A stretch of DNA of 36,702 nt from a virus. Under the pieces are notes generated by a model that did no database searches, was not told where the DNA came from, and saw only the letters and a program-made list of their open reading frames with translations. Position numbers and translations under genes: made by a program. The DNA lies in IMG/VR virus record IMGVR_UViG_3300045988_119983. The stretch is one strand, 5' to 3'. Shown here in pieces: positions 1 to 36,702 of this stretch; position 1 is the first letter of the stretch; each line of letters begins with the position of its first letter.

Positions 1-55
1 CCTGCTGCGTCTTACGTTTGTGATGCCAACGGCAAAGCCACTGGAGGTTCACCGC
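1..55. repeat. 55-bp exact terminal direct repeat, copy 1 (assembly overlap of a circular molecule)
   Basis: cctgctgcgtcttacgtttgtgatgccaacggcaaagccactggaggttcaccgc is identical to 36648..36702. Confidence 0.97.
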
Positions 56-2657: not shown

Positions 2658-3163
2658 CAGAACGGCGGCTCAGAAGGGGCAGCAGGAGCGCCCCACGGAT
2701 CGTGCTGCTCCGCATCCAGCGACGCAGACGGTTGCCACCCGCCCGCATCCTGAACAGGCGCAGGCCCCGCCCCGAAGCCGCCCGCGCTCGCGGGCTGCAC
2801 TTGAACGCGGGTGACCTGTGCGCGTGCGCGGCGCAGGGAGGGGCCGACCTCGTCAACCTGCAGCTCTACGACCGTACGGCGTTCGCCCTGCGGGGTTTCG
2901 TACGAGCGCTGGGTGAGGCGACCCTGAACGATGACGCGCATGCCCTTACGCAGCGACTCGGCAACGTTCTCAGCGATCTCGCGCCACACGGAGCAGCGCA
3001 TAAAGAGGGTGTCGCCGTCGCGCCACTCGCCGGCGTTACGGTCGTAGGTTCGCGGCGTCGACGCGACGGTGAAGTCGGCGACTGCGGCGCCGGACTGCGT
3101 CCAACGCAGCTCGGGGTCAGCGGTCAGGTTACCGATGACAGTGATGACGGTTTCTCCAGCCAT
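2657..3163 (-). CDS. ssb: Single-stranded DNA-binding protein
   Basis: N-terminal OB-fold pattern [26 protein letters not shown]...[12 protein letters not shown]...VQGRL, Gly/Pro-rich linker, C-terminal tip EPPF. Confidence 0.9.
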
Positions 3164-3893: not shown

Positions 3894-5102
3894 GCTGCCT
3901 CCTTAAGGGCGATCTTGGTGAGCTGGTAGATAGCTGCGGCGCCCTGCTGCGGGACGACCCCATTTCCGAGGAGTCGGAGCTGCTGCTCGCGTGTCAGGCC
4001 GAGATCCGCGCCTGTCACATGCCCTTCCGGTAGCCCCATGAGCCACTCGACAAACTTCGTTGAGAGGCGTGCTCGCCCCCCCCTCGCGAGTCGGTGGGAC
4101 AGTCGGCGCCGGAGCCTCACGTCCGAGCACCTGCTCCCAGCGCGCGATCGCTGGCGCGTACATTCCGAAATCGGTGTACTCAATCCGCGTCGCCAGGTGT
4201 GTACTCTTTTCCGGCGGTCGTCCGCTCGTCCGAGGGAGGCCCATCACCGCATCTCCTGCCTTCGGAGTCGGCAGCAGCTCGCGCGCCACTTCGTGCAAGT
4301 TCGCGCCGTACCCGGTCGAGGAGGCCGTTGCGTTCGTTGCCTGCGGCGTCGGCAGCATCTGCACCGCCTGAGACAGACTCATGCCCGTCCCCTCCTGGTG
4401 CCTCCCCGCCTTATGGTCCGACGCAGTCGGCGTCGGGATCAGGGCACCAGATGCTCGATCTGGTCTGCCAGGCTCACCGAGTGCCCCCCGGCCCGCCGCT
4501 TCTCCGGCTCCTGCGATCCCCCGCAGCTGCCAAGGTTCGCCTGCGGGGTGGCTAGTAACAAAAAGTCGCTCTCGCTGATGAGGGGCGCCAACGTCGGAAG
4601 CTCTGACAACACACCATTGCGAGTCATACCCGAGGCCGGCCAGATCTCCGACCACACGGCCTGCTGCGCGGAGAAGAGATCCATCTGCTCCGTCTCCCAG
4701 CAGTCCCTGCTCTTGTTCCACCAGACTGAATGCTCCACTCGTCAAACTCCCTCGCACGTTTTCCCACACGACCAGACGCGGACGCAGTGTCTTGATCGCC
4801 TCGAACATCGACTCCCACAGGCCCGATCTCGTCCCCGAGGCCATGCCCGCGCGACGGCCCGCGAGGCTCAGATCCTGGCAGGGTGAGCCTCCGCAGATGA
4901 TGTCGACCGGTTCAACGTCCGACCAATCAACCTGCGTGATGTCGCCTAGATTCGGCACGCCAGGCCAGCGCACCTCAGCAAGCCGACATGGCCCCGGCTC
5001 GACGTCACTCGTCCACGCGACACGCGCCGACGGATCAAGGGCTATACGCACGGCCATATCAAGACCGCCGTATCCAGTAAAGAGACTGCCGATAGTTGTC
5101 AT
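3890..5102 (-). CDS. DNA (cytosine-5) methyltransferase, reading frame broken at a G8 tract
   Basis: Start MTTIGSLFTGYGGLD (motif I), GGSPCQDLS (IV), ENVRG (VI), GAPHQRERLF (VIII), three LPTPxA repeats. The C-terminal FVEWLMGLPEGHVT...GNGVVPQ (motif X) is in the +1 frame (track ORF 3890..4183). Confidence 0.85.
4076..4083. repeat. Homopolymer C8 (G8 on the coding strand) at the methyltransferase frame break
   Basis: gctcgCCCCCCCCtcgcg. Confidence 0.95.
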
Positions 5103-6026: not shown

Positions 6027-6376
6027 TCCCCGGCCTCCTCGGGTGTGATCGGTGTGCCCTGTGAGACGTTGACTAGGGCGTCGATTGGTTCGCCGATTGC
6101 TAGGCGGATTTCGCTGGCTTCGTCGGGTGTGCCGGCGTACCTGGCGGCGACGTAGCTTGCTACGTCGGCGAGGTCCGAAGCTGCGACGGCGATCGCGTCC
6201 TGCAGCTCATCGACACGGTCGAGGAGGTACGCCATATCCACGGCTGCGTTCTGGTCGAACGCAGCGACAGCGTCTGTGTAGGCCTTCGCGATCGCGGTGC
6301 GGTCTGCGCCTGCGTAGCTGCGGCCAGCGAACGCCACGGCGTTCAGCCTGTCCTTGATCTCGTTGATGGTGGTCAT
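6023..6376 (-). CDS. Hypothetical acidic protein (117 aa)
   Basis: ORF with high third-position GC. Confidence 0.6.
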   Translation of the reverse strand: MTTINEIKDRLNAVAFAGRSYAGADRTAIAKAYTDAVAAFDQNAAVDMAYLLDRVDELQDAIAVAASDLADVASYVAARYAGTPDEASEIRLAIGEPIDALVNVSQGTPITPEEAGE

Positions 6377-6388
6377 TGGTTGTCCTTC

Positions 6389-6539
6389 TCTAGGGGGTCT
6401 TGCCCTGCGCGCTCGTGGCGCGGGCTTCGTGCCCGCCCGGGACTTGCACCCGTGAGTCTGCTTGTCGGGCTGCGCGATCTTTAGCCTGTCCCGCTTTGTT
6501 TTCTTGGTGGCGGGTGGCCTCCTCGATGGTCGCGCTCAT
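6389..6539 (-). CDS. Possible small basic ORF (49 aa)
   Basis: Own translation: MSATIEEATRHQENKAGQAKDRAARQADSRVQVPGGHEARATSAQGKTP*. No clear SD and only moderate GC3. Confidence 0.25.
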
Positions 6540-6551
6540 CGGGGAGTGTGC

Positions 6552-6803
6552 TTACTCGTCGATGTAGTCGCCTTCACCGACGTTGAGGCGCTCGGATGCT
6601 TCCTGGAGCTTTCCGACGATCTCGAGGTACAGGTCGCGCTTCTTGTCGATCGCCTCACGAGCGAGACGTCGGGCGGCGAGGTCATTGATCTGCTTCGTGA
6701 TCTCCAGATCCTCATCAGCGGTGAGCACCGTCTCCTGCGCGTCGTCTCGCAGTGCCTACACCTGAGCGGCGTCGAGATAGACCGCGATGTATCTGCCCTT
6801 CAC
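6552..6803 (-). CDS. 82-codon early ORF interrupted by an in-frame TAG (6756..6758)
   Basis: Own translation: VKGRYIAVYLDAAQV*ALRDDAQETVLTADEDLEITKQINDLAARRLAREAIDKKRDLYLEIVGKLQEASERLNVGEGDYIDE*. GTG 6803 overlaps the upstream stop (GTGA). GC3 is high on both sides of the TAG. Confidence 0.5.
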
Positions 6804-9687: not shown

Positions 9688-10017
9688 CTACTCGTCCTCG
9701 GCGTAGATGCTGCCGTGCGACGCCTGGAGGATCACGACGCCGGACTGCTTGTCCTGGATTGCGAAGCCGCTCGGCTTCTGCGCTTCGGCGGCTGCGCGGG
9801 ACTCCGCTTGCTTGACAAGCTCGGAGGGCTGCACTTCGAGCGCAGCGGCAAAGGCGCACAGGTCGTCGACGTTGATACGCCGCGAGCGGTACCGGATCTT
9901 CCGGAGCACTCCGCTGTAGGAGAGGCCGGACTTCTTGCTGAGCTGCAGGAGCGAGATCCCGCGCGCTTCTGCGGAGGCCTCGATCACATCAGCTATCCCG
10001 ATTGGTATATATCGCAT
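9688..10017 (-). CDS. XRE-family HTH regulator, Cro-like (first gene of the early operon)
   Basis: Start MRYIPIGIADVIEASAEARGISLLQLSKKSGLSYSGVLRKI.... Divergent from the CI-like gene. Confidence 0.7.
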   Translation of the reverse strand: MRYIPIGIADVIEASAEARGISLLQLSKKSGLSYSGVLRKIRYRSRRINVDDLCAFAAALEVQPSELVKQAESRAAAEAQKPSGFAIQDKQSGVVILQASHGSIYAEDE

Positions 10018-10024
10018 ACCGCAT

Positions 10025-10053
10025 AACCTATGCCGATTGGCAACACTTGTCAA
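10025..10053 (-). promoter_or_regulatory. Early (lytic) promoter: -35 TTGACA, 17-nt spacer, -10 TAGGTT, leaderless geometry
   Basis: Minus strand reads TTGACA(10053-10048)-agtgttgccaatcggca-TAGGTT(10030-25)-atgcggt-ATG(10017). Confidence 0.6.
10031..10042. promoter_or_regulatory. Operator O1, TGCCgattGGCA
   Basis: Dyad half-sites TGCC/GGCA. Lies in the spacer of the early promoter and is part of a 19-bp arm (10029-10047) repeated in inverted form at 10069-10087 (17/19). Confidence 0.55.
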
Positions 10054-10059
10054 CTCGAC

Positions 10060-10089
10060 TTGCGTGCGAGTGTTGCCACTTGGCATACT
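10060..10089 (+). promoter_or_regulatory. Putative repressor promoter: TTGCGT, 18-nt spacer, CATACT, leaderless
   Basis: The -10 ends 6 nt before ATG 10096. Confidence 0.35.
10074..10085. promoter_or_regulatory. Operator O2, TGCCacttGGCA
   Basis: Same dyad, 43 bp centre-to-centre from O1. Overlaps the -10 of the putative repressor promoter. Confidence 0.55.
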
Positions 10090-10095
10090 TACCGC

Positions 10096-10350
10096 ATGGG
10101 AACGGCGACTCGGTATGTTGAGCTTGTGGCGTGTATTCTGCGCGAACTTGCTGATCGCAGGGGCCTCAGCGGGGCTGAGATCGCACGCCGCAGCGGCGTG
10201 TCTCAGGCGCAAATTTCGCGCATATTTACCGGAAAACGGACCATTAGTGTAGATCATGTCCTGGCCGTCGCCGAGGTACTCGGCGTGCGCGGCTCCGATG
10301 TTTTTGCCGAGGCTGAGCGCCGATTCCTCTCGGAACAGGCAGAGGCGTAG
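10096..10350 (+). CDS. XRE-family HTH repressor, CI-like (84 aa, no peptidase domain)
   Basis: Start MGTATRYVELVACILRELADRRGLSGAEIARRSGVSQAQISRIFTGKR. Same strand and block as the integrase. Confidence 0.7.
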   Translation: MGTATRYVELVACILRELADRRGLSGAEIARRSGVSQAQISRIFTGKRTISVDHVLAVAEVLGVRGSDVFAEAERRFLSEQAEA

Positions 10351-10446
10351 GCCGATAATTGGCCCGCGCGGATTACAACCGCGCCCGCCCTCATCCTGCG
10401 AGCTGTAGGCTATCCATATCGCCAGACCGTGCTCAAAGGAGGAGCC

Positions 10447-10908
10447 ATGCACCGGCCTAAAGGAGCCTTCCGGCTCTACTCATCTGATCCCGCTGAGATC
10501 ATCTGCACCGACACCGAGCTGCTATATGACTCGAAGCGCCGAGGCGAGCCAATCCAGCGCATCCCACTGACTGACGTCGTCAGCGTCGAGGTCGAGGACG
10601 GCGAAGCGGCGCAGGCGCGTGTGACCGCGACGCGCCTCGTCGCGCTCGGTATCTTCGCGCTTGCTGCGAAGAAAAAGAGCGGCGGCGACAAATGGCTCAT
10701 GATCGAGACGCGCACCGCCCTGCTGACTCTCCACTTCGAGCGCAAGTATGTTGACGGCCTCATGCGCTTCGTTGCTCACACGCGCGCCGCCGTGAAGGCT
10801 GCACAGGCCCAGCCCGTGCCCGCCGCCCCGCCCGCTCCTATCCGCTGGCCCGGCGCGCCTCAGCAGCCCGCTCCGAAGCCTGGCGGCTGGGGCCGCATAT
10901 TCCGCTAA
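10447..10908 (+). CDS. Hypothetical protein with PH-like N-terminal region, hydrophobic segment and Pro-rich tail; candidate exclusion factor
   Basis: SD AAGGAGGA before ATG 10447. RLVALGIFALAAKKK; C-terminal PVPAAPPAPIRWPGAPQQPAPKPGGWG. Confidence 0.5.
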   Translation: MHRPKGAFRLYSSDPAEIICTDTELLYDSKRRGEPIQRIPLTDVVSVEVEDGEAAQARVTATRLVALGIFALAAKKKSGGDKWLMIETRTALLTLHFERKYVDGLMRFVAHTRAAVKAAQAQPVPAAPPAPIRWPGAPQQPAPKPGGWGRIFR

Positions 10909-10977: not shown

Positions 10978-10999
10978 TTCGATTCCCCCCATCTCCACA
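10978..10999 (+). other. Candidate attP core resembling a tRNA 3' end
   Basis: ttcgattccccccatctccaca reads as T-loop TTCGATT + CCCCC + 7-nt acceptor strand + discriminator. The upstream bases do not form the matching T-stem, so this is a fragment and not a gene. Confidence 0.5.
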
Positions 11000-11106: not shown

Positions 11107-11113
11107 TTGCTAG

Positions 11114-11158
11114 TGGCGCATATGTGGCGCACGCAGTGGAAAAAGATTCTGCGCCACT
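11114..11158 (+). promoter_or_regulatory. Second pair of GTGGCGC repeats (11114, 11125) plus one inverted copy (11152-11158); candidate P' arm sites
   Basis: tagtggcgcatatgtggcgcac...tgcgccac. Confidence 0.45.
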
Positions 11159-11178
11159 TCCCCGACGAGGAGGCAGAT

Positions 11179-12336
11179 ATGAGCGGACGGAGAGCCTTCG
11201 GCTCGATCAGGAAAGCCCGCAGCGGGCGATTCGAGGTTCGCTACACAGGGCCCGACGGTGGCAAGTACACCGCCGGGAGATCTTTTATCCGCAAGACCGA
11301 CGCGAGTGCCTTCCTTGCACATGTCGAGGCCGAGATCAGCGAGGGTACCTGGACCAGCCCCAAAGAAGCCCGCGAGCGCGATCGCGTGCAGGAGGTCGCC
11401 GCCGAACGCGCGGCGATCACTTTCGCCGCCTGGTCGGAGAGGTGGCTCGCGTCGCTCGAGCGACTAGGCCGCACCCCTAAGACAATTCAGACGCACACCT
11501 ATCGGATGCGGCAGCTCGTCCCAGTGTTTGGTGCGAAGCCGCTCGGGTCGATCAGCGTCGAGGACGTCGATTCCTGGTATCAGCGCATCTGGGATGCCAA
11601 GGGGCCTGGCGTCGTGCGACCAATCTATATGACCTTGTCCGCGTGCATGAACGCCGCGGTGAAGGCGGGTCTCATCGCGGCGAGCCCCTGCAAGGTTCCC
11701 GAAGGGCAGAAGCATCGGCCCGTGCGCGAGCGCGAGCGACAGGTCGCGACACCCGAGGAGGTCCGCGCCGCCGCCGACGCAATGCCCGCACGCCTGCGCA
11801 TCGCCGTCCTTCTCGCTGCCTGGTGCCAAACCAGGCTCGGAGAGCTGATCGGCTTGCAGCGACGGGACTTCGATCTCTGCTCCACACCCGCGATAGTCCG
11901 GATCGAGCGGCAGGTGCAGTACCTGACTGGCGAGGGGCCTGTCGAGCTGCCCCCGAAGAGTGCCGCCGGCATCCGCGAGATCGTCATCCCCCCGTCGCTT
12001 GTCCCTACCCTGCGAGCGCACCTTGATTCCTACGTCGAGCCGGACGCTACGGCCTGGCTCCTCTGCTCTGAGCGCTCGGCCCGACTCCCGCTTCATCCGA
12101 ATACCCTCCGCAGGGCATGGGAACGCGCGCGCGAGGACGCCGGCATCCCTTGGCTTAAATTCCACGACCTCCGGCACACTGGCCTCACGATCTTCGCGCA
12201 GCAGGGCGCGACGCTTGCTGAGCTGCTTCACAGGGGCGGGCATAGTGATGTCGACGTTGCGCTGCGTTATCAGCATGCGACCCGCGAGCGCGATGCGGCC
12301 TTGACGTCGCGTATGGACTCGCGTGTCCTTATCTGA
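11179..12336 (+). CDS. int: Tyrosine integrase
   Basis: Start MSGRRAFGSIRKARSGRFEVRY (SD GAGGAGG). TRLGELIGLQRRD, HDLRHTGLT, GHSDVDVALRYQH (R..HxxR..Y). Confidence 0.9.
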   Translation: MSGRRAFGSIRKARSGRFEVRYTGPDGGKYTAGRSFIRKTDASAFLAHVEAEISEGTWTSPKEARERDRVQEVAAERAAITFAAWSERWLASLERLGRTPKTIQTHTYRMRQLVPVFGAKPLGSISVEDVDSWYQRIWDAKGPGVVRPIYMTLSACMNAAVKAGLIAASPCKVPEGQKHRPVRERERQVATPEEVRAAADAMPARLRIAVLLAAWCQTRLGELIGLQRRDFDLCSTPAIVRIERQVQYLTGEGPVELPPKSAAGIREIVIPPSLVPTLRAHLDSYVEPDATAWLLCSERSARLPLHPNTLRRAWERAREDAGIPWLKFHDLRHTGLTIFAQQGATLAELLHRGGHSDVDVALRYQHATRERDAALTSRMDSRVLI

Positions 12337-12370
12337 GTGCTATTGTTTTGTAGATCACATCCGTTCCTGC

Positions 12371-12400
12371 TTGCACTATACGTCGGGCGCGATGTATAGT
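12371..12400 (+). promoter_or_regulatory. Promoter copy 1: TTGCAC, 18-nt spacer, TATAGT
   Basis: ttgcac-tatacgtcgggcgcgatg-tatagt. The ACTATA/TATAGT inverted repeat spans the -35 and -10. Confidence 0.6.
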
Positions 12401-12407
12401 TAATGCA

Positions 12408-12429
12408 TCGGGAGGGACGAGCCCCCCGA
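12408..12429 (+). ncRNA. Conserved 5'-leader hairpin, copy 1
   Basis: tcggg(a)ggg-acgag-ccccccga, directly followed by ccctcaaaGAAGGAGaca and ATG 12453. Confidence 0.45.
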
Positions 12430-12452
12430 CCCTCAAAGAAGGAGACACTGAA

Positions 12453-12794
12453 ATGACCACCGCAAACTGGACCAAGGCAGAGCGTTTCGACGGTGACAAC
12501 GCCCTCATTGCCGCCGACCTCGACAACGGCGCCCGCGCCGTCATCTACGGCGATTACCAGGACGAGATCAAGATTAGCTTGCTGATCTTCGACTCCTCCC
12601 TGCCGGGTGGCAGTGCCTCGACCAGCAACACCCAGGAATGGCCGCTCATCGAGCGACACATCCCCCGTGTCGAGTGGCCCGCCGAAATCTGGGGCGGCTA
12701 CCATGGCCCCGCCGAGCGCACACCCGACCCCGAGGTTGCCGCCGCCGTCGCCCAGTTCGTCGCCGAGACGAACGCCTGGCTGGCCGAGGGCTGA
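12453..12794 (+). CDS. Small acidic protein (113 aa), unknown function
   Basis: About 18 Asp/Glu against 7 Lys/Arg by my count. Has its own promoter, leader, SD and downstream hairpin (moron architecture). Confidence 0.65.
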   Translation: MTTANWTKAERFDGDNALIAADLDNGARAVIYGDYQDEIKISLLIFDSSLPGGSASTSNTQEWPLIERHIPRVEWPAEIWGGYHGPAERTPDPEVAAAVAQFVAETNAWLAEG

Positions 12795-12808
12795 CCAGCA
12801 AACCAAGG

Positions 12809-12838
12809 CCCCCGCGCCCGAAACCGACGGCGCGGGGG
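12809..12838 (+). terminator. GC hairpin after the first acidic ORF
   Basis: cccccgcgcc / ggcgcggggg, 10-nt loop, no T-tract. Confidence 0.4.
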
Positions 12839-12857
12839 TCAACCCGTAGGAGGAGAA

Positions 12858-13268
12858 TTGACCGAACCGCTTACACCCGCCGGGCTGAGATGTCGAAGAG
12901 AGGCCCTCGGCCTCTCCCGCGCTGACCTTGGTGCCCTCCTGGACGTCAACGAGGGCGTGATCCGCTCCTGGGAAATCGGTAAGAGTGAACCAAGGGATCC
13001 GATTAGCATTCACATGCTCCTCGGCGAGATCGAAGATGCGGCCCTCGACTGCGTCGACGAGCTCATCGAGAGCATGGACGACGAGAACGAGGGTGTGCGG
13101 GCGCTGCCGACAGCGCTCATCGCGTACCAGGACATTCTCACCTATCGTCAGAGCACGCGATGGGCAATGCGGCTCCCCCTACCCTCGTACCGTGCCTGTG
13201 TCGGGCGCGCATACCAGCTCCTCTCCGATCAGGGCATCCCCGTCCAGATCGTCACCCCCTACGACTGA
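12858..13268 (+). CDS. XRE-type HTH protein (136 aa), TTG start
   Basis: SD AGGAGGAG. LRCRREALGLSRADLGALLDVNEGVIRSWEIGKSEP. Confidence 0.6.
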   Translation: MTEPLTPAGLRCRREALGLSRADLGALLDVNEGVIRSWEIGKSEPRDPISIHMLLGEIEDAALDCVDELIESMDDENEGVRALPTALIAYQDILTYRQSTRWAMRLPLPSYRACVGRAYQLLSDQGIPVQIVTPYD

Positions 13269-13279
13269 GGACAAGAATC

Positions 13280-13495
13280 ATGACTACCGAGTACCTCGGA
13301 ACGGCTGCTGTCGCAGAACGCCTCGGCCTCGCTGTCCCCACGATCCGCTCATACATCCTGCGCGGCCTCATGCCCGCGCCTGACGTCATCATCTCTACCC
13401 CCTCCGGTCCCCTGCGCGGCTGGGCTCCCGAGACAATCGATGAATGGCAGCGCGATCGCCCCGGACGCGGTGCCCGCACCGACATCGAAAAGTAG
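13280..13495 (+). CDS. Excisionase/MerR-like HTH protein (71 aa)
   Basis: Start MTTEYLGTAAVAERLGLAVPTIRSYILRGLMP. The track ORF 13160.. begins earlier with a low-complexity extension. Confidence 0.6.
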   Translation: MTTEYLGTAAVAERLGLAVPTIRSYILRGLMPAPDVIISTPSGPLRGWAPETIDEWQRDRPGRGARTDIEK

Positions 13496-13517
13496 CACAC
13501 AACACAGTTATTCCAAC

Positions 13518-13547
13518 TTGCACTATGCATCGCGCACGATGTATAGT
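13518..13547 (+). promoter_or_regulatory. Promoter copy 2: TTGCAC, 18-nt spacer, TATAGT
   Basis: ttgcac-tatgcatcgcgcacgatg-tatagt. Confidence 0.6.
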
Positions 13548-13554
13548 TAATGCA

Positions 13555-13576
13555 TCGGGAGGGACAAGCCCCCCGA
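13555..13576 (+). ncRNA. Conserved 5'-leader hairpin, copy 2
   Basis: Identical to copy 1 except for one loop base (acaag vs acgag). Confidence 0.45.
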
Positions 13577-13600
13577 CCCTCAAAGAAGGAGACAGAAACC

Positions 13601-13969
13601 ATGGACCTCTACGCCGCCACCAAGGCATGGACCAACTGCGACACCGTCGATATCCCCGGCTGCCCCGGCTGGGCATTCAACGGCCCTGCCCGCCCCACGG
13701 AGGAGTTCTTCGTCGCTATCAGCTACGACGGCCGCGAAATCGCCCGCGCCTACGGCGACGAAGCCGATCCGATGTCGATCCACTTCTACCCGACACCGCG
13801 AGAGATCGTCACGCTTGACGACTTCAAGTGGATCATCAAGATGATTCGTCGAGGCTTCCTCCTCAGCCTCGACTCAGAGTTCAACTACTGGCTCGCGAAC
13901 TGCGACTGCTCCAGCTACCACTGGGACTTCGACCCCGGAATCGGAGTGACAGCCCCCGCCAAGGCCTGA
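13601..13969 (+). CDS. Small acidic Cys-containing protein (122 aa), unknown function
   Basis: Start MDLYAATKAW at the SD-spaced ATG 13601. About 18 acidic against 10 basic residues. Confidence 0.65.
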   Translation: MDLYAATKAWTNCDTVDIPGCPGWAFNGPARPTEEFFVAISYDGREIARAYGDEADPMSIHFYPTPREIVTLDDFKWIIKMIRRGFLLSLDSEFNYWLANCDCSSYHWDFDPGIGVTAPAKA

Positions 13970-13978
13970 CAACAAGGG

Positions 13979-14013
13979 AAGGCCCCACCGCCCAAAACTG
14001 GCGGTGGGGCCTT
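13979..14013. terminator. Bidirectional terminator between convergent genes
   Basis: aaggccccaccgcc-caaaact-ggcggtggggcctt, a perfect 14-bp stem. Confidence 0.7.
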
Positions 14014-14022
14014 CTGCATCGG

Positions 14023-14922
14023 CTACGGATGCACGCGAGACGGGAACGATGCCATGAGGCCGGACGCTCCCTTTTCGAGCGCTGTACGCGCCTGTCCCTC
14101 GTTCGTGATGATGTGCGCGATCGTCGGACGCCCGGACGCGTTGATGCGGTTCCAGACGTCCGCGCTCGCGGACCACTCCATGCCGATTACATCCCACTGC
14201 TGTAGGTTCGCCGCGGGGACTTCGGCGGGGTAGAGCATTGCCATTGTGCGATAGCCGCGCGCTTTCGCTCGTGCCGCGCTCGTGCCCTTCGCAAAGACTT
14301 TCCAGATCACGCGACGCTCGGGATGCCCACCGAAAGCGGTGTCCAGGTACTCGAAGAGCTGCTCCTCAGCCTGCAGATCAGCCGTGTTCCGCTGATCCTC
14401 AGACGAGGTCGTCTTGTGGTCGATCGCCAGGACGACATCATCGGGGATCTGGTCGACGATATCCCGAAGCCGCATAAACGGCCCCGTGCCCTGCTGCAGA
14501 GTCCGCAGCGTGCTCCAGGGAGTAGACCAGATCGGCAGATCCGTCCCCGGGACCGTGCGAGTCGTTTTCCAGTCATGGATCGCGATAAACTCGGCAGGCT
14601 CTCCGTGCGGCCCCCGAGCGGAGAGCCGGACGGAGATCTCCAGCGCCTTGAAGCCCGCCCGGAGCGAGGCATCAAGACCCCGCTGCGTGAACTCCGGATA
14701 TTCTGTGCCGCTCATCCTATGGGCGATATAGAAGGGCCGTTGCCGCAGGAATTGCTCGACGACGTCCGTCGCGGCGGGCGTGACCGGAGTCGTCGCCTCA
14801 CGTCGACGCAGGAGAAGATCCCCTCCGTCGCGACGACGGCGACGCACGACCCCGGGCACGTCACCACCGTTGCGACGACGGCGATAGATCGTCAGCTCAG
14901 CCACGGGCGACCACCTGGACAC
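14023..14922 (-). CDS. Glycerophosphodiester phosphodiesterase (GDPD)-like protein with Arg-rich N-terminus; start uncertain
   Basis: FYIAHRMSGTEYPEFTQRGLDASLRAGFKALEISVRLS...FIAIHDWKTTRT resembles the GDPD pattern HR(G)..PENT...E.D....HD..RTT. Confidence 0.65.
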   Translation of the reverse strand: MSRWSPVAELTIYRRRRNGGDVPGVVRRRRRDGGDLLLRRREATTPVTPAATDVVEQFLRQRPFYIAHRMSGTEYPEFTQRGLDASLRAGFKALEISVRLSARGPHGEPAEFIAIHDWKTTRTVPGTDLPIWSTPWSTLRTLQQGTGPFMRLRDIVDQIPDDVVLAIDHKTTSSEDQRNTADLQAEEQLFEYLDTAFGGHPERRVIWKVFAKGTSAARAKARGYRTMAMLYPAEVPAANLQQWDVIGMEWSASADVWNRINASGRPTIAHIITNEGQARTALEKGASGLMASFPSRVHP

Positions 14923-16066
14923 CGATCCCGTTACTCCCTTGGACGTTCGGGTAGGTCACGACGAGGTCGGCGGGGGATCCTGCAGTTCGCTTTGCAAGCG
15001 TCACCGTCTGATAATTCAGACCGTCCTGCGCCGCAAATTGTAACTTCTCCCAGCCCTCCGAGACCGTGACCTGGTCCGAAGTTTCGCCCGCACTCGTGCG
15101 CTCGAAAGTGAAGCCGAGCGCGAGACCCGCACCCGCGAGCGCGGGCGCCGTGCAAGTCTTAGTCTCGACCGGCTCGGCCTGACGTTTCTTGACGGTGCCG
15201 GCCTCGATGCGGGAGGCACCACGTACTGCGGCTGCGGCCCATCCAATCTCGGCGTTCTGCGACATCGTGACCGTGATCGTTGGCGCCCAGGGACCGGTGA
15301 TGATAGTCGCGCTCATCGTACCGACCCAGTACGGATCGACGAGCGTCGTCCAGCCCTGCGGGAGGTTTGCGGTAGCGCGAACGCCTTGAGCCTTTTCGTT
15401 GATGCCCAGGATGATCTTGTCGCCTGCCTTGCCGTCGACCTTTACGGTGATAGTCTGGCCGACAACGGAGCCCGAGGCGTGGCCGACGACGGCGGGGCCG
15501 GCGGCTGGCGCGGGGCCGGGCGTCGGGGTCGGCGGCTGCGCTGGTGAAGCTGCGGCAGCGAGGAAGTAGAGCGCGCCGTCTGGCAGGCGCTGCGCTTCGG
15601 CCTCGTTTGCGACGACGGTGATGCCGACGCCTGTTAGCGCGGCCTGCAGCTCAGCCTTGGTAGCAAGGCCGGTCAGGTCGGAGGTGTGCGCGACGCCTGC
15701 GACGTCGCCCTTCGTCGCATAGCCGGAGAGCTCGGCCTTCGTGGCGAGGCCTGTCAGGTCGGATCGTTTTGCGACTCCGACGATCTCGTCCTTCGTCGCG
15801 TAGGCCGTGAGGTCTGCGCGGGAGGCGAGGTCGGCGACCTGGCGAGTGGTCGCGTAGCCGGCCAGTTCCTCGCGGGTCGCGAGGCCCCGCAGCTCTGCCT
15901 TCTTCGCGTAGTCGGTGAGGTCCACTCTGCCGCCTGCGGCGGCGGTCGCGACGTCGCCCTTCGTCGCATAGCCGGAGAGCTCCGACTTTGTTGCGAGCGG
16001 TGCGACTGCTCGCGCGATTGCCTTATCGGTGCCCTGCTTCGTGTAGAGCGTCGGTCGTGCTGCCAT
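14897..16066 (-). CDS. Fibre-like protein: about 12 nonapeptide repeats (ATKxELxGY), Pro-rich hinge, C-terminal globular domain
   Basis: ATKSELSGY/AKKAELRGL/ATREELAGY/.../ATKAELSGY/ATKGDVAGV. An exact 35-bp DNA repeat occurs at 15699-15733 and 15948-15982. Confidence 0.65.
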   Translation of the reverse strand: MAARPTLYTKQGTDKAIARAVAPLATKSELSGYATKGDVATAAAGGRVDLTDYAKKAELRGLATREELAGYATTRQVADLASRADLTAYATKDEIVGVAKRSDLTGLATKAELSGYATKGDVAGVAHTSDLTGLATKAELQAALTGVGITVVANEAEAQRLPDGALYFLAAAASPAQPPTPTPGPAPAAGPAVVGHASGSVVGQTITVKVDGKAGDKIILGINEKAQGVRATANLPQGWTTLVDPYWVGTMSATIITGPWAPTITVTMSQNAEIGWAAAAVRGASRIEAGTVKKRQAEPVETKTCTAPALAGAGLALGFTFERTSAGETSDQVTVSEGWEKLQFAAQDGLNYQTVTLAKRTAGSPADLVVTYPNVQGSNGIGVQVVARG

Positions 16067-36570: not shown

Positions 36571-36702
36571 TCAGTCGATGAGGCCGGGATGCTTGCGCTT
36601 TCGCGGCTGGTTTTTCTTCCGCTCAGCAGCGAGCGCCGCCGCAGCTTCCTGCTGCGTCTTACGTTTGTGATGCCAACGGCAAAGCCACTGGAGGTTCACC
36701 GC
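36571..36702 (-). CDS. HNH endonuclease, 3' part (stop TGA at 36571..36573)
   Basis: 44 codons ending ...AVNLQWLCRWHHKRKTQQEAAAALAAERKKNQPRKRKHPGLID*. The window end falls on a codon boundary and matches bases 1..55. Confidence 0.85.
   Translation of the reverse strand, partial: AVNLQWLCRWHHKRKTQQEAAAALAAERKKNQPRKRKHPGLID
36648..36702. repeat. 55-bp exact terminal direct repeat, copy 2
   Basis: Base-for-base identical to 1..55. Confidence 0.97.

What the first reader, a model, noticed from the sequence alone, without database searches (positions are those of the whole stretch)
12371..13969. Two copies of one promoter-leader cassette each drive a small acidic protein and bracket two HTH genes: candidate anti-defence or lysogenic-conversion locus
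Repeat structure:
- 12370-12447 and 13517-13594 are about 78-nt near-repeats. The 57-nt core gatgtatagttaatgcatcgggagggac(g/a)agccccccgaccctcaaagaaggagaca differs at one base.
- Each copy contains TTGCAC, an 18-nt spacer and TATAGT, with an ACTATA/TATAGT inverted repeat bridging the -35 and -10.
- Each copy also has a bulged 8-bp GC hairpin whose only difference is in the loop, then a strong SD.
- Each cassette drives an unrelated-looking acidic ORF (113 aa, net charge about -11; 122 aa, net charge about -8). Each ORF ends in a hairpin. This is classic moron architecture.

Context:
- An XRE-type HTH and a MerR/Xis-type HTH lie between the two cassettes.
- A strong inverted-repeat-bearing promoter, a small acidic protein and a downstream HTH autoregulator together resemble acr-aca operons. 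The locus sits next to int and attP.
- The two acidic proteins share a weak motif (G.R....YGD..D...S), so they may be distant paralogues.

The function is entirely inferred.
Basis: partly seen in the sequence, partly recalled or inferred. Interest (0 to 1): 0.8.

Follow-up and report, generated by a model that had tools for sequence, protein, structure and literature searches.

The report
Self-regulated accessory gene module in phage
A temperate phage of oral Actinomyces/Schaalia bacteria carries a 1.6-kb optional insert in which two copies of one promoter-operator-hairpin cassette drive small, mostly acidic proteins of unknown function alongside two DNA-binding regulators; the layout resembles known anti-defence (acr-aca) operons, but the function is untested.

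Summary
Two 84-nt repeats (12364-12447 and 13511-13594, 92% identical) each hold TTGCAC-18-TATAGT, a 24-bp dyad between the hexamers, a bulged 8-bp hairpin, a strong SD and an ORF that ends in a hairpin.

The whole int-to-terminator segment is missing from the close relative Actinomyces phage xhp1, which is still lytic, lysogenic and inducible. The module is therefore accessory.

About 100 cassette copies occur in about 60 related viral contigs, upstream of at least 7 unrelated small-protein families, most of them very acidic. The XRE and MerR/Xis-like genes stay constant. The dyad shows symmetric covariation in four sequence classes, which is the signature of an operator. The hairpin shows compensatory changes and a variable loop, and it starts 1 nt after the predicted transcription start.

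Best reading: a portable, self-repressed expression module that works like an acr-aca locus and probably carries counter-defence or host-takeover cargo.

- Nothing shows homology to known Acr, Aca or DNA-mimic proteins, and the structure models were poor.
- The proposed paralogy of the two ORFs is not supported.
- orf113 has distant, uncharacterised relatives, some fused to an HTH domain.

This is a new member of a known kind, of moderate interest.

The parts
10978..10996 (+). attP core, identical to the 3' end of the host tmRNA (ssrA) gene
   Evidence: In the integrated relative L249 the tmRNA gene (6215-6590) ends with the same TTCGATTCCCCCCATCTCC directly upstream of int.
11107..12336 (+). 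Tyrosine integrase, the backbone gene that bounds the module on the left
   Evidence: Pfam Phage_integrase 6.8e-14 and phrog_1 1e-56. It is 91% identical to the xhp1 integrase.
12348..12370 (+). Conserved block upstream of the -35 (ATCACATYCRTTCC), shared by cassettes A and B. Candidate UP element or second protein site.
   Evidence: Alignment of 15 cassettes and of 103 cassettes. The role is inferred only.
12371..12400 (+). Promoter A: -35 TTGCAC (12371-12376), 18-nt spacer, -10 TATAGT (12395-12400)
   Evidence: Both hexamers and their spacing are conserved in about 100 copies in relatives. No transcription start data exist.
12376..12399 (.). Operator A: 24-bp dyad CTATACGTCG-GGCG-CGATGTATAG, overlapping the -35 by 1 nt and the -10 by 5 nt
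   Evidence: It is unique to the two cassettes in the window. Across 77 distinct operators, 79.6% of arm positions are complementary, against 7-37% in slid registers. Positions 6/19, 7/18 and 8/17 covary symmetrically.
12407..12452 (+). 5' leader A: predicted +1 at A12407, bulged hairpin 12408-12429, invariant CTCAA, SD GAAGGAG 12438-12444
   Evidence: Fold of -14.9 kcal/mol. 98.6% of cells are paired over 69 distinct leaders, with GC>AU at one pair and one G-U. Further compensatory variants occur in L198 and L239. Covariance model score 66.8 bits. The +1 position is inferred from the distance to the -10.
12453..12794 (+). orf113 (cargo A), 113 aa, pI 4.3, net charge -11, unknown function
   Evidence: No family hit. 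Close homologues occur only in this phage group. Distant relatives share the motif WPxxERYIPRxEWPxEIxAGxxGPxxRxPDPAV, and some carry a C-terminal HTH.
12807..12840 (+). Intra-operon GC hairpin without a U-tract, between cargo A and the XRE gene. Candidate partial terminator or 3' stabiliser.
   Evidence: An 11-14-bp hairpin of -25 to -37 kcal/mol lies at this position in every module, with different sequences.
12858..13268 (+). XRE-type HTH protein, 136 aa, TTG start. Candidate repressor of both cassettes.
   Evidence: HTH_3 at 22.6 bits against a cutoff of 23; phrog_4836 1.5e-7; weak match to P22 C2 repressor. It is present in all 57 related loci.
13280..13495 (+). MerR/HTH_17 (excisionase-like) small DNA-binding protein, 71 aa
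   Evidence: phrog_597 1.8e-22, phrog_66 2.6e-5, and Pfam MerR 24.8 bits, below its cutoff. It always follows the XRE gene.
13518..13547 (+). Promoter B: -35 TTGCAC (13518-13523), -10 TATAGT (13542-13547), with operator B, the dyad CTATGCATCG-CGCA-CGATGTATAG, at 13523-13546
13554..13600 (+). 5' leader B: predicted +1 at A13554, hairpin 13555-13576 (loop ACAAG), SD 13585-13591
   Evidence: 70.7 bits.
13601..13969 (+). orf122 (cargo B), 122 aa, pI 4.5, net charge -8, 4 Cys, unknown function
   Evidence: No family hit. Homologues occur only in this phage group and are usually 130 aa.
13978..14014 (.). Bidirectional terminator hairpin shared with the convergent GDPD gene; right boundary of the insertion
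   Evidence: Terminator scan. It is homologous to the xhp1 int/GDPD intergenic hairpin.

Best explanation
The segment 12340-13975 is a portable, self-contained accessory module inserted between the integrase and the virion/lysis genes of an xhp1-like temperate phage of oral Actinomycetaceae. It consists of two transcription units.

Each unit starts with the same cassette:
- a housekeeping-sigma-type promoter (TTGCAC-18-TATAGT);
- a 24-bp dyad operator that fills the spacer and overlaps the -10;
- a transcript that begins about 1 nt before a stable bulged hairpin;
- a strong SD.

Unit A expresses cargo orf113 at a high level. A U-less hairpin and a TTG start then let through a small amount of the XRE-type and MerR/Xis-type HTH proteins. 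At least one of these, most likely the XRE protein as a dimer, binds the dyads and shuts off both promoters. This would give a burst followed by repression and would bring the adjacent unit B (orf122) under the same control. The 5'-terminal hairpin most likely protects the mRNA from 5'-end-dependent decay. Alternatively, it is an RNA site for one of the HTH proteins, as in Aca2 and Aca1.

The cargo slots are exchangeable. The cargo are most likely counter-defence or host-takeover proteins.

**Shown:** the anatomy, the insertion, conservation, operator-like and hairpin covariation, cargo turnover, and dispensability.

**Inferred:** the transcription start, who binds what, the timing of expression and the cargo function.
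For: - **Insertion and dispensability.** xhp1 has int followed directly by GDPD, sharing the terminator, and has no cassette. It is nevertheless lytic, lysogenic and inducible (PMC13578794).
- **Conservation independent of the leader.** 53 of 55 XRE-anchored loci carry cassette A by a strict pattern, and one more (L239) has a variant. A search anchored only on the -10 and SD returned 62 loci, and all the related ones had the hairpin.
- **Cargo turnover.** The families directly behind the leader are F2 (net -24), F4 (-17), F6 = orf113, F7 = orf122, F8, F12 (-23) and F15. The XRE and MerR-like genes are constant. None of the cargo has a known domain.
- **Operator.**
  - It is unique to the cassettes in the window.
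  - 613 of 770 arm cells are complementary, against 533 +/- 7 in shuffles (0 of 2000 shuffles reach the observed value).
  - The changes are symmetric, CG<>GC, AT<>CG and TA<>CG, and the centre is variable.
  - L239 changes both outer arms symmetrically, even altering the -10 to TAGAGT.
- **Hairpin.**
  - The stem is nearly invariant, with GC>AU at two different pairs, one G-U and a paired deletion. Loops vary from 4 to 6 nt.
  - The distances to the -10 (7 nt) and to the SD are fixed.
- **Attenuated regulators.** A hairpin lies between cargo A and the XRE gene in every module, and the XRE gene starts with TTG in the window.
- **Minimal form.** Single-cassette modules exist, in the order PA, cargo, XRE, MerR-like, terminator.
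- **Known precedent for every architectural element.** Aca proteins repress strong acr promoters through inverted repeats, bind 5'UTR hairpins and control adjacent operons (PMC13551039).
- **HTH fusions.** Some distant orf113 relatives are fused to an HTH domain. Acr-HTH fusions are known in the Acr field (PMC10901769 title and abstract).
Against: - No experimental data exist on transcription, binding or phenotype.
- There is no sequence or fold similarity to any Acr, Aca or DNA mimic. The AlphaFold models were poor, with pLDDT 48 and 57.
- Operator class and regulator variants correlate only loosely. In several genomes cassettes A and B carry different operator classes, which one regulator of one specificity does not explain.
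- The hairpin does not co-vary with operator class, unlike the Aca RNA motifs.
- The window's own two cargo proteins are only moderately acidic relative to the phage proteome.
- The position next to int and attP is also typical of lysogenic-conversion genes.
Confidence: 0.5

Rival explanations
1. Lysogenic-conversion or superinfection-exclusion moron. The cassettes are active in the prophage, and the small proteins benefit or protect the lysogen, for example by excluding related phages. The HTH proteins merely tune expression.
For: - The module is an insertion with its own promoter and terminator.
- It lies at the prophage end next to attL and int in integrated relatives.
- It is not under an operator shared with the immunity region, so it could be expressed in lysogens.
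- Diversification of operator classes resembles immunity-type diversification.
Against: - The cargo are small and soluble. Several families are extremely acidic ORFans without membrane segments or enzyme domains, which is unlike most known prophage defence or exclusion genes. There was no PADLOC hit.
- A tightly self-repressed strong promoter fits a burst better than steady expression.
Confidence: 0.2
2. Integration/excision control module. The 71-aa MerR/HTH_17 protein is the excisionase (RDF) for the adjacent integrase, and the XRE protein controls it. The acidic ORFs are passengers.
For: - The 71-aa protein has an excisionase-like HTH (phrog_66 2.6e-5; TIGR01764 weak; Pfam HTH_17 19.7 bits).
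- It sits just downstream of int and attP.
- It always travels with the XRE gene.
Against: - xhp1 has a 91%-identical integrase but no module, and it still lysogenises and is induced.
- The module also occurs next to a different, 265-aa integrase in L006.
- The scores are below the curated cutoffs.
- This reading does not explain the second cassette or the cargo turnover.
Confidence: 0.12
3. Induction or anti-repressor module. The small acidic proteins inactivate the phage or host repressors, and the cassette operators gate the lysis-lysogeny decision.
For: - Small acidic anti-repressors are common in temperate phages (general knowledge).
- The module has operators and two regulators.
- Some orf113 relatives are fused to an HTH domain.
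Against: - The module is dispensable in xhp1 for both life cycles.
- At least 7 unrelated cargo families would not all target one repressor.
- No LexA-type box is present, since the dyad differs from the actinobacterial TCGAAC-N4-GTTCGA box (own knowledge).
Confidence: 0.1
4. The hairpin and dyad are not expression signals. They would be terminators of the upstream genes, recombination scars or chance repeats.
For: - The hairpins lie 60-70 nt after the int and MerR71 stop codons.
- U-less terminators are known in actinobacteria (own knowledge).
- The two cassettes in one genome are homogenised, as expected for recombining repeats.
Against: - The spacing from the hairpin to the -10 and to the SD and start codon of the downstream gene is fixed, whatever lies upstream. 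This includes a third genomic location in relatives.
- About 100 copies always sit in front of an ORF.
- 0 matches are expected by chance.
Confidence: 0.03

Closest known systems
acr-aca operons with Aca1/Aca2/Aca14-type control (PMC13551039; PMC6765145; PMC9410906)
   Same: - A strong promoter carries an inverted-repeat operator.
- An HTH regulator is encoded downstream of small variable proteins in the same operon.
- A conserved structured hairpin lies in the 5'UTR.
- The same motifs also sit in front of a neighbouring operon.
- The cargo is hypervariable, small and often acidic.
   Different: - No sequence similarity was found to the Aca chains that would be in the PDB, or to any Acr.
- There are two regulator genes (XRE plus HTH_17) instead of one.
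- The hairpin is constant across four operator classes rather than co-evolving with the regulator.
- No anti-CRISPR or other anti-defence activity has been shown.
- The host is a high-GC actinobacterium.
Phage morons (a promoter-gene-terminator unit inserted between conserved genes, as described for lambdoid phages; own knowledge)
   Same: - The module is present or absent between the same two backbone genes in close relatives.
- It has its own promoter-like element and terminal hairpins.
- It lies near int and att.
   Different: - It has several genes, including its own regulators and operators.
- The expression cassette is duplicated.
- Cargo is exchanged inside a constant frame.
Start-associated and extended start-associated sequences (SAS/ESAS) of cluster K mycobacteriophages (PMC3203893)
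   Same: - Both are conserved repeated motifs, including imperfect inverted repeats with a variable spacer.
- Both lie immediately upstream of many start codons in an actinobacteriophage group.
- In both cases the function is not established.
   Different: - SAS is a short motif tied to the start codon, and ESAS is a 17-bp inverted repeat next to it, with many copies per genome.
- Here there are 1-3 copies per genome, each a full promoter, operator, hairpin and SD unit, and they are confined to accessory genes.
5'-terminal stem-loop mRNA stabilisers (E. coli ompA leader; B. subtilis ermC and aprE leaders; own knowledge)
   Same: A stable hairpin lies within 1-2 nt of the predicted 5' end, followed by a single-stranded linker and a strong SD.
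   Different: - The transcription start and the half-life effect have not been measured here.
- The hairpin has a conserved bulged A and an invariant downstream CTCAA, which a simple stabiliser does not require.
Actinomyces phage xhp1 (MG941013), the closest sequenced phage
   Same: The backbone is about 85% identical in DNA. Int, orf159, GDPD and the tail fibre are 91-95% identical in protein.
   Different: - xhp1 lacks the whole module and any copy of the leader; its best covariance-model score is 12.6 bits.
- Its immunity HTH protein is only about 30% identical.

Membership tests
acr-aca operon | The upstream small protein inhibits CRISPR-Cas or another defence system, or is homologous to a known Acr | tested here: not met
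   - No hit in Pfam, PHROGs, PADLOC, NCBIfam or PDB sequences.
- Foldseek found nothing with E <= 0.001, using low-confidence models.
- Activity itself cannot be tested here, and no dedicated Acr HMM library was available.
acr-aca operon | An HTH regulator (Aca) is encoded downstream in the same operon | tested here: met
   The XRE-type and HTH_17-type genes follow cargo A on the same strand with short gaps in all 57 related loci.
acr-aca operon | The regulator belongs to a described Aca family | tested here: not met
   - A PDB sequence search with XRE136 and MerR71 at E <= 1 returned no chain named as an Aca; the best hits were P22 C2 repressor and Atu1735. Solved Aca structures exist (PMC8633003, PMC9410881).
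- This is only a partial test, because no Aca HMM set was available.
acr-aca operon | An inverted-repeat operator lies in or overlaps the promoter | tested here: met
   A 24-bp dyad lies between the -35 and -10 and shows symmetric covariation. Protein binding was not tested.
acr-aca operon | [quoted passage not shown] | tested here: inconclusive
   The hairpin is supported by compensatory changes. It does not co-vary with the operator or regulator class, and binding cannot be tested here.
Phage moron | The unit is present or absent between the same conserved genes in close relatives | tested here: met
   In xhp1, int is followed directly by the shared terminator and GDPD.
Phage moron | It has its own promoter and terminator | tested here: inconclusive
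   Conserved -35/-10 hexamers and terminal hairpins are present. No transcription data exist.
Phage moron | It is expressed from the repressed prophage | not testable with these tools
   This needs RNA-seq of a lysogen.
XRE (HTH_3) transcription regulators | The Pfam HTH_3 domain scores above the gathering score | tested here: inconclusive
   22.6 bits against a cutoff of 23.0. Supported by phrog_4836, phrog_8 and phrog_3 and by a weak P22 C2 match.
Excisionase / HTH_17 (MerR-like) small DNA-binding proteins | The domain scores above the curated cutoff, and the protein acts as an RDF for the adjacent integrase | tested here: inconclusive
   - MerR 24.8 bits against 28.2, HTH_17 19.7 against 27, and TIGR01764 13.2 against 28.8. 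phrog_597 gives 1.8e-22 ('DNA binding protein').
- xhp1 manages without it.
Any Rfam RNA family | A match at the gathering score | tested here: not met
   No match in the window at the gathering threshold. Only chance-level hits appear at E <= 10 in 12200-14100.

The most novel reading that the evidence does not exclude
The module is a previously undescribed anti-defence island of oral Actinomycetaceae phages.

- It would have a new Aca-like regulator pair that controls two operons at both the DNA level (the dyad operator) and the RNA level (the 5' hairpin).
- The conserved promoter-leader cassettes would double as homology arms, letting at least 7 new families of small acidic inhibitor proteins be swapped in and out.
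- The operator classes would diversify to escape cross-repression by resident prophages.
Probability: 0.22. Interest if true: 0.7.

Novelty: new member of a known kind. Interest (0 to 1): 0.5.

Why it matters
If the reading is right, the conserved leader and dyad give a simple sequence handle for finding accessory, probably counter-defence, genes in phages of oral Actinomyces/Schaalia. No anti-defence proteins or Aca-like regulators turned up for this group in the searches made here. The handle already points to at least 7 uncharacterised small-protein families.

The closest relative, xhp1, lacks the module and has a working host system, S. odontolytica XH001 cured of Xhp1 (PMC13578794). Gain-of-function tests are therefore feasible.

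The cassette is also a compact, apparently strong and repressible expression signal for a high-GC Gram-positive host. It offers a natural data set on how operator specificity diversifies.

Tried and rejected
**Searches that found nothing**
- Rfam at the gathering and E-value thresholds found nothing.
- Pfam, PHROGs, PADLOC and NCBIfam found nothing for either ORF or for the alternative cargo families.
- PDB sequence searches with single proteins and with profiles A1, A2 and A7 found nothing.
- The AlphaFold2 models from shallow alignments were poor (pLDDT 48 and 57). The Foldseek results against the PDB are therefore uninformative, and the third fold search was not spent.

**Hypotheses rejected or left undecided**
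- Paralogy of orf113 and orf122 is rejected.
- Correlating operator class with XRE or MerR-like variants, to name the binder, was inconclusive. The two genes are linked, and hybrids and mixed-class genomes exist.
- A divergent minus-strand promoter suggested by the scan is rejected. Its -35 is not conserved among relatives, and class II left arms destroy its -10.
- SD sequestration by the conserved CCUC is rejected, because only 3 bp are possible.
- A third operator half-site, TAATGCATCG, downstream of the -10 was considered. It does not co-vary with operator class.

**Searches that added little**
- The single genome-contig scan used too loose a pattern. Nearly all 120 loci were chance hits, and only L118, L151 and L178 had the full cassette context.
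- One distant orf113 relative (L251) lies in an array of small ORFs and tRNA genes, without the cassette.
Full report
**What the window is.**
- The 36.7-kb window is a complete, circularly permuted phage genome, since bases 1-55 repeat at 36648-36702.
- It is about 85% identical in DNA to Actinomyces (now Schaalia) odontolytica phage xhp1 (MG941013).
- The shared backbone proteins orf159, Int, GDPD and the tail fibre are 91-95% identical.

**Check of the observation.** The repeat is real and is the only repeat of its kind in the window.
- 12364-12447 and 13511-13594 are 84 nt long and 92% identical.
- Each copy holds TTGCAC, an 18-nt spacer and TATAGT. It also holds the bulged hairpin TCGGGAGGG-loop-CCCCCCGA, whose only difference between the copies is a loop G/A, and the SD GAAGGAGACA.
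- The consensus promoter scan missed it, because TTGCAC matches TTGACA at only 3 of 6 positions.
The dyad occurs only in these two places, and 0 matches are expected by chance.
- The downstream ORFs are 113 aa (net charge -11) and 122 aa (net charge -8). Each ends in a GC hairpin, at 12807-12840 and 13978-14014.
- An XRE-type gene and a MerR/HTH_17-type gene lie between the cassettes.

**The segment is an insertion.**
- In xhp1 the integrase stop codon is followed at once by the hairpin that, in the window, follows orf122. The convergent GDPD gene comes next.
- About 12340-13975 is therefore absent from xhp1. A covariance model of the leader also finds no copy there; the best score is 12.6 bits, against 66.8 and 70.7 bits for the two window copies.
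- xhp1 forms plaques, lysogenises and is inducible (PMC13578794). The module is thus accessory to the basic life cycle.

**Position in the prophage.**
- An integrated relative (L249) shows the order SmpB, ABC transporter genes, tmRNA gene, int, module, GDPD and tail genes.
- The tmRNA 3' end, TTCGATTCCCCCCATCTCC, recurs at window 10978-10996, about 110 bp upstream of int.

**The cassette in relatives.** Three searches with different anchors gave the same picture.
- *Hairpin pattern.* It matched 38 viral loci.
- *Pattern fixed only on the -10 and SD.* It matched 62 loci, and all the related ones contained the hairpin.
- *Search anchored on the XRE protein.* It returned 57 real loci. 53 of the 55 with enough upstream DNA had cassette A by a strict pattern, and one more (L239) had a variant.

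The usual layout is cassette A, cargo A, GC hairpin, XRE gene, MerR-like gene, cassette B, cargo B.
- Single-cassette modules that end after the MerR-like gene also exist.
- Some relatives have a third cassette elsewhere in the genome.

The gene directly behind the leader belongs to at least 7 unrelated families:

| Family | Length (aa) | Net charge or pI |
|---|---|---|
| F2 | 68-139 | -24 |
| F4 | 91-92 | -17 |
| F6 (= orf113) | 113-115 | -11 |
| F7 (= orf122) | 122-130 | -8 (window) |
| F8 | 99-114 | basic (pI 9.2) |
| F12 | 117 | -23 |
| F15 | 121 | +1 (pI 8.1) |

- None of these families has a Pfam or PHROG assignment.
- The XRE and MerR-like genes are always present.

**The dyad behaves like an operator.**
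- Among 77 distinct 24-nt sites, 79.6% of arm positions are complementary, against 7-37% in slid registers. The observed count is 613 of 770 cells, against 533 +/- 7 when partners are shuffled, and 0 of 2000 shuffles reach it.
- The centre varies freely. Arm positions 6/19, 7/18 and 8/17 switch symmetrically (CG<>GC, AT<>CG, TA<>CG).
- This defines class I (CTATACRTCG...CGATGTATAG) and class II (ATAGCCCG...CGGGCTATAG). Class III occurs in L031. Class IV occurs in L239 (CTCTACACCG-CGCG-CGGTGTAGAG), where the symmetric change even alters the -10 to TAGAGT.
- Four specificities argue for a phage-encoded dimeric binder rather than a host factor.
- The window's immunity region has no such site, so the binder is most simply one of the module's own HTH proteins.
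- Which protein binds is not settled. XRE and MerR-like variants follow operator class only loosely, and in several genomes cassettes A and B carry different classes.

**The hairpin is a conserved structure.**
- Over 69 distinct leaders, 98.6% of cells pair. One pair switches GC>AU in 9 sequences, and one G-U occurs.
- The XRE-anchored set adds three more variants:
  - an inner GC>AU change together with a bulge A>U in L198;
  - a paired deletion of one G-C, found in both cassettes of L239;
  - a one-sided deletion in L214.
- Loops vary in length (4-6 nt) and in sequence. This argues against a fixed-spacing DNA site and for a nucleic-acid hairpin.
- The hairpin begins 7 nt after TATAGT, so the predicted +1 (a conserved purine) lies 1 nt before the stem. 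This is inference.
- A stable 5'-terminal stem-loop followed by a free, strong SD is the classic anatomy of an mRNA stabiliser (own knowledge).
- Binding by one of the HTH proteins, as shown for Aca2 and Aca1 on their 5'UTR hairpins (PMC13551039), is the alternative. The stem is the same in all operator classes, so it does not co-evolve with the operator. I take this as mild evidence for a constant reader.

**Other architectural points.**
- Every module has an 11-14-bp GC hairpin without a U-tract between cargo A and the XRE gene. Its sequence differs among lineages.
- In the window the XRE gene starts with TTG. Both features fit high cargo expression and low regulator expression.
- The two cassettes of one genome tend to share the same loop, operator and even the stem deletion. 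This indicates homogenisation by recombination. It also suggests that the cassettes serve as homology arms for cargo exchange, which is inference.

**The proteins.**
- orf113 and orf122 have close homologues only in this phage group.
- An exhaustive profile search found 50 distant clusters for orf113 at 25-43% identity, sharing the motif WPxxERYIPRxEWPxEIxAGxxGPxxRxPDPAV.
  - All are unnamed proteins of Caudoviricetes, Actinomyces or Schaalia.
  - Some carry a C-terminal HTH domain, and some are tandem duplications.
- The two ORFs are not detectably related to each other, with 0.4% and 0.08% probability.
- The structure models were of low confidence (pLDDT 48 and 57), and the fold searches returned only noise.
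- Against the xhp1 proteome, the window's two cargo proteins are only moderately acidic. Families F2, F4 and F12 are extreme.

**Interpretation.** The anatomy matches, element by element, what is described for acr-aca loci (PMC13551039, PMC6765145, PMC9410906):
- a strong promoter with an inverted-repeat operator;
- small variable cargo first, with the HTH regulator downstream;
- a structured 5'UTR motif;
- the same motifs in front of an adjacent operon.

I therefore judge that the locus works like an Aca-controlled accessory operon, and that counter-defence or host takeover is the most likely cargo role (about 0.4-0.5).

Membership in the acr-aca family is not established. There is no homology to known Acr or Aca proteins, and no activity data exist.

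Three rivals cannot be excluded without expression data:
- a lysogenic-conversion or exclusion moron;
- an Xis-centred excision module, weakened by xhp1 doing without it and by the module also sitting next to a different integrase in L006;
- an anti-repressor module.

**Verdict.** The locus is a new member of a known kind and of moderate interest. Its value lies in giving a searchable handle and a tractable test system, not in a new principle.

Noticed in passing
window 1-55 and 36648-36702: An identical 55-nt terminal overlap shows that the window is a complete, circularly assembled phage genome of about 36.65 kb.
   Followed up: partly
window 10978-10996; L249 6215-6590: The attP core TTCGATTCCCCCCATCTCC equals the 3' end of the host tmRNA (ssrA) gene. 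In L249 the prophage is integrated right after the tmRNA gene, near smpB.
   Followed up: yes
L043, L049, L052, L055, L057, L058, L062, L065, L071 (e.g. L049 about 3950-4320): Relatives carry a third cassette elsewhere in the genome. It has a stronger -35 (TTGACT), only the right operator arm, and the compensated hairpin variant TCAGG...CCTG(A/C). It drives a 91-aa very acidic ORF of family F4. It is absent from the window and from xhp1.
   Followed up: partly
L249 9624-10316 and many other loci (family F3): In many relatives a basic 230-aa protein with a ROS/MucR zinc-finger domain (1e-8) follows cargo B. It is not present in the window.
   Followed up: partly
window 13601-13969: The window's orf122 lacks 8 residues (QAFNEAAT) that are present near the N-terminus of almost all 130-aa relatives. 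This is an in-frame deletion.
   Followed up: no
window 10030-10350 and 9688-10452(-): The CI-like HTH gene is only about 30% identical to its xhp1 counterpart, although the next genes (orf159, int) are about 91% identical. This suggests a swapped immunity specificity. The long minus-strand ORF that overlaps it has its own HTH only in its C-terminal part, so it is probably a shorter Cro-like gene.
   Followed up: no
window 15648-15997 (within gene 14897-16066, minus strand): 27/54/81-nt periodic direct repeats encode reiterated ...ATK(A/S)ELSGYATKGDVA... units in a tail-fibre-like protein.
   Followed up: no
P0059, P0061, P0074, P0094, P0097, P0099 (relatives of orf113): Distant relatives of orf113 occur as tandem duplications (270 aa) or fused to a C-terminal HTH domain, for example in Actinomyces bovis and Schaalia sp. 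19OD2882. All are annotated as hypothetical.
   Followed up: partly
L251 1-8375: In another Actinomycetaceae phage contig (54 kb), a 124-aa orf113 relative lies in a long same-strand array of small ORFs. The roughly 125-nt gaps between them contain tRNA-like T-arm repeats (GGTTCGATTCC) rather than the promoter-leader cassette.
   Followed up: partly
L031 about 9700-9830 (+) and about 2680-2790 (-): Two cassettes on opposite strands have a different promoter (TTGTGT/TTGCAT...TATACT) and a third dyad type (GTACGCAGGTGCGTAC), but the same hairpin stem. One drives a 117-aa protein with net charge -23.
   Followed up: no
L006 1422-2219: The same module sits next to a different, 265-aa XerC/D-like integrase and a different cargo A (99 aa, basic, weak DUF6927 match). 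The module is therefore not tied to one integrase.
   Followed up: partly
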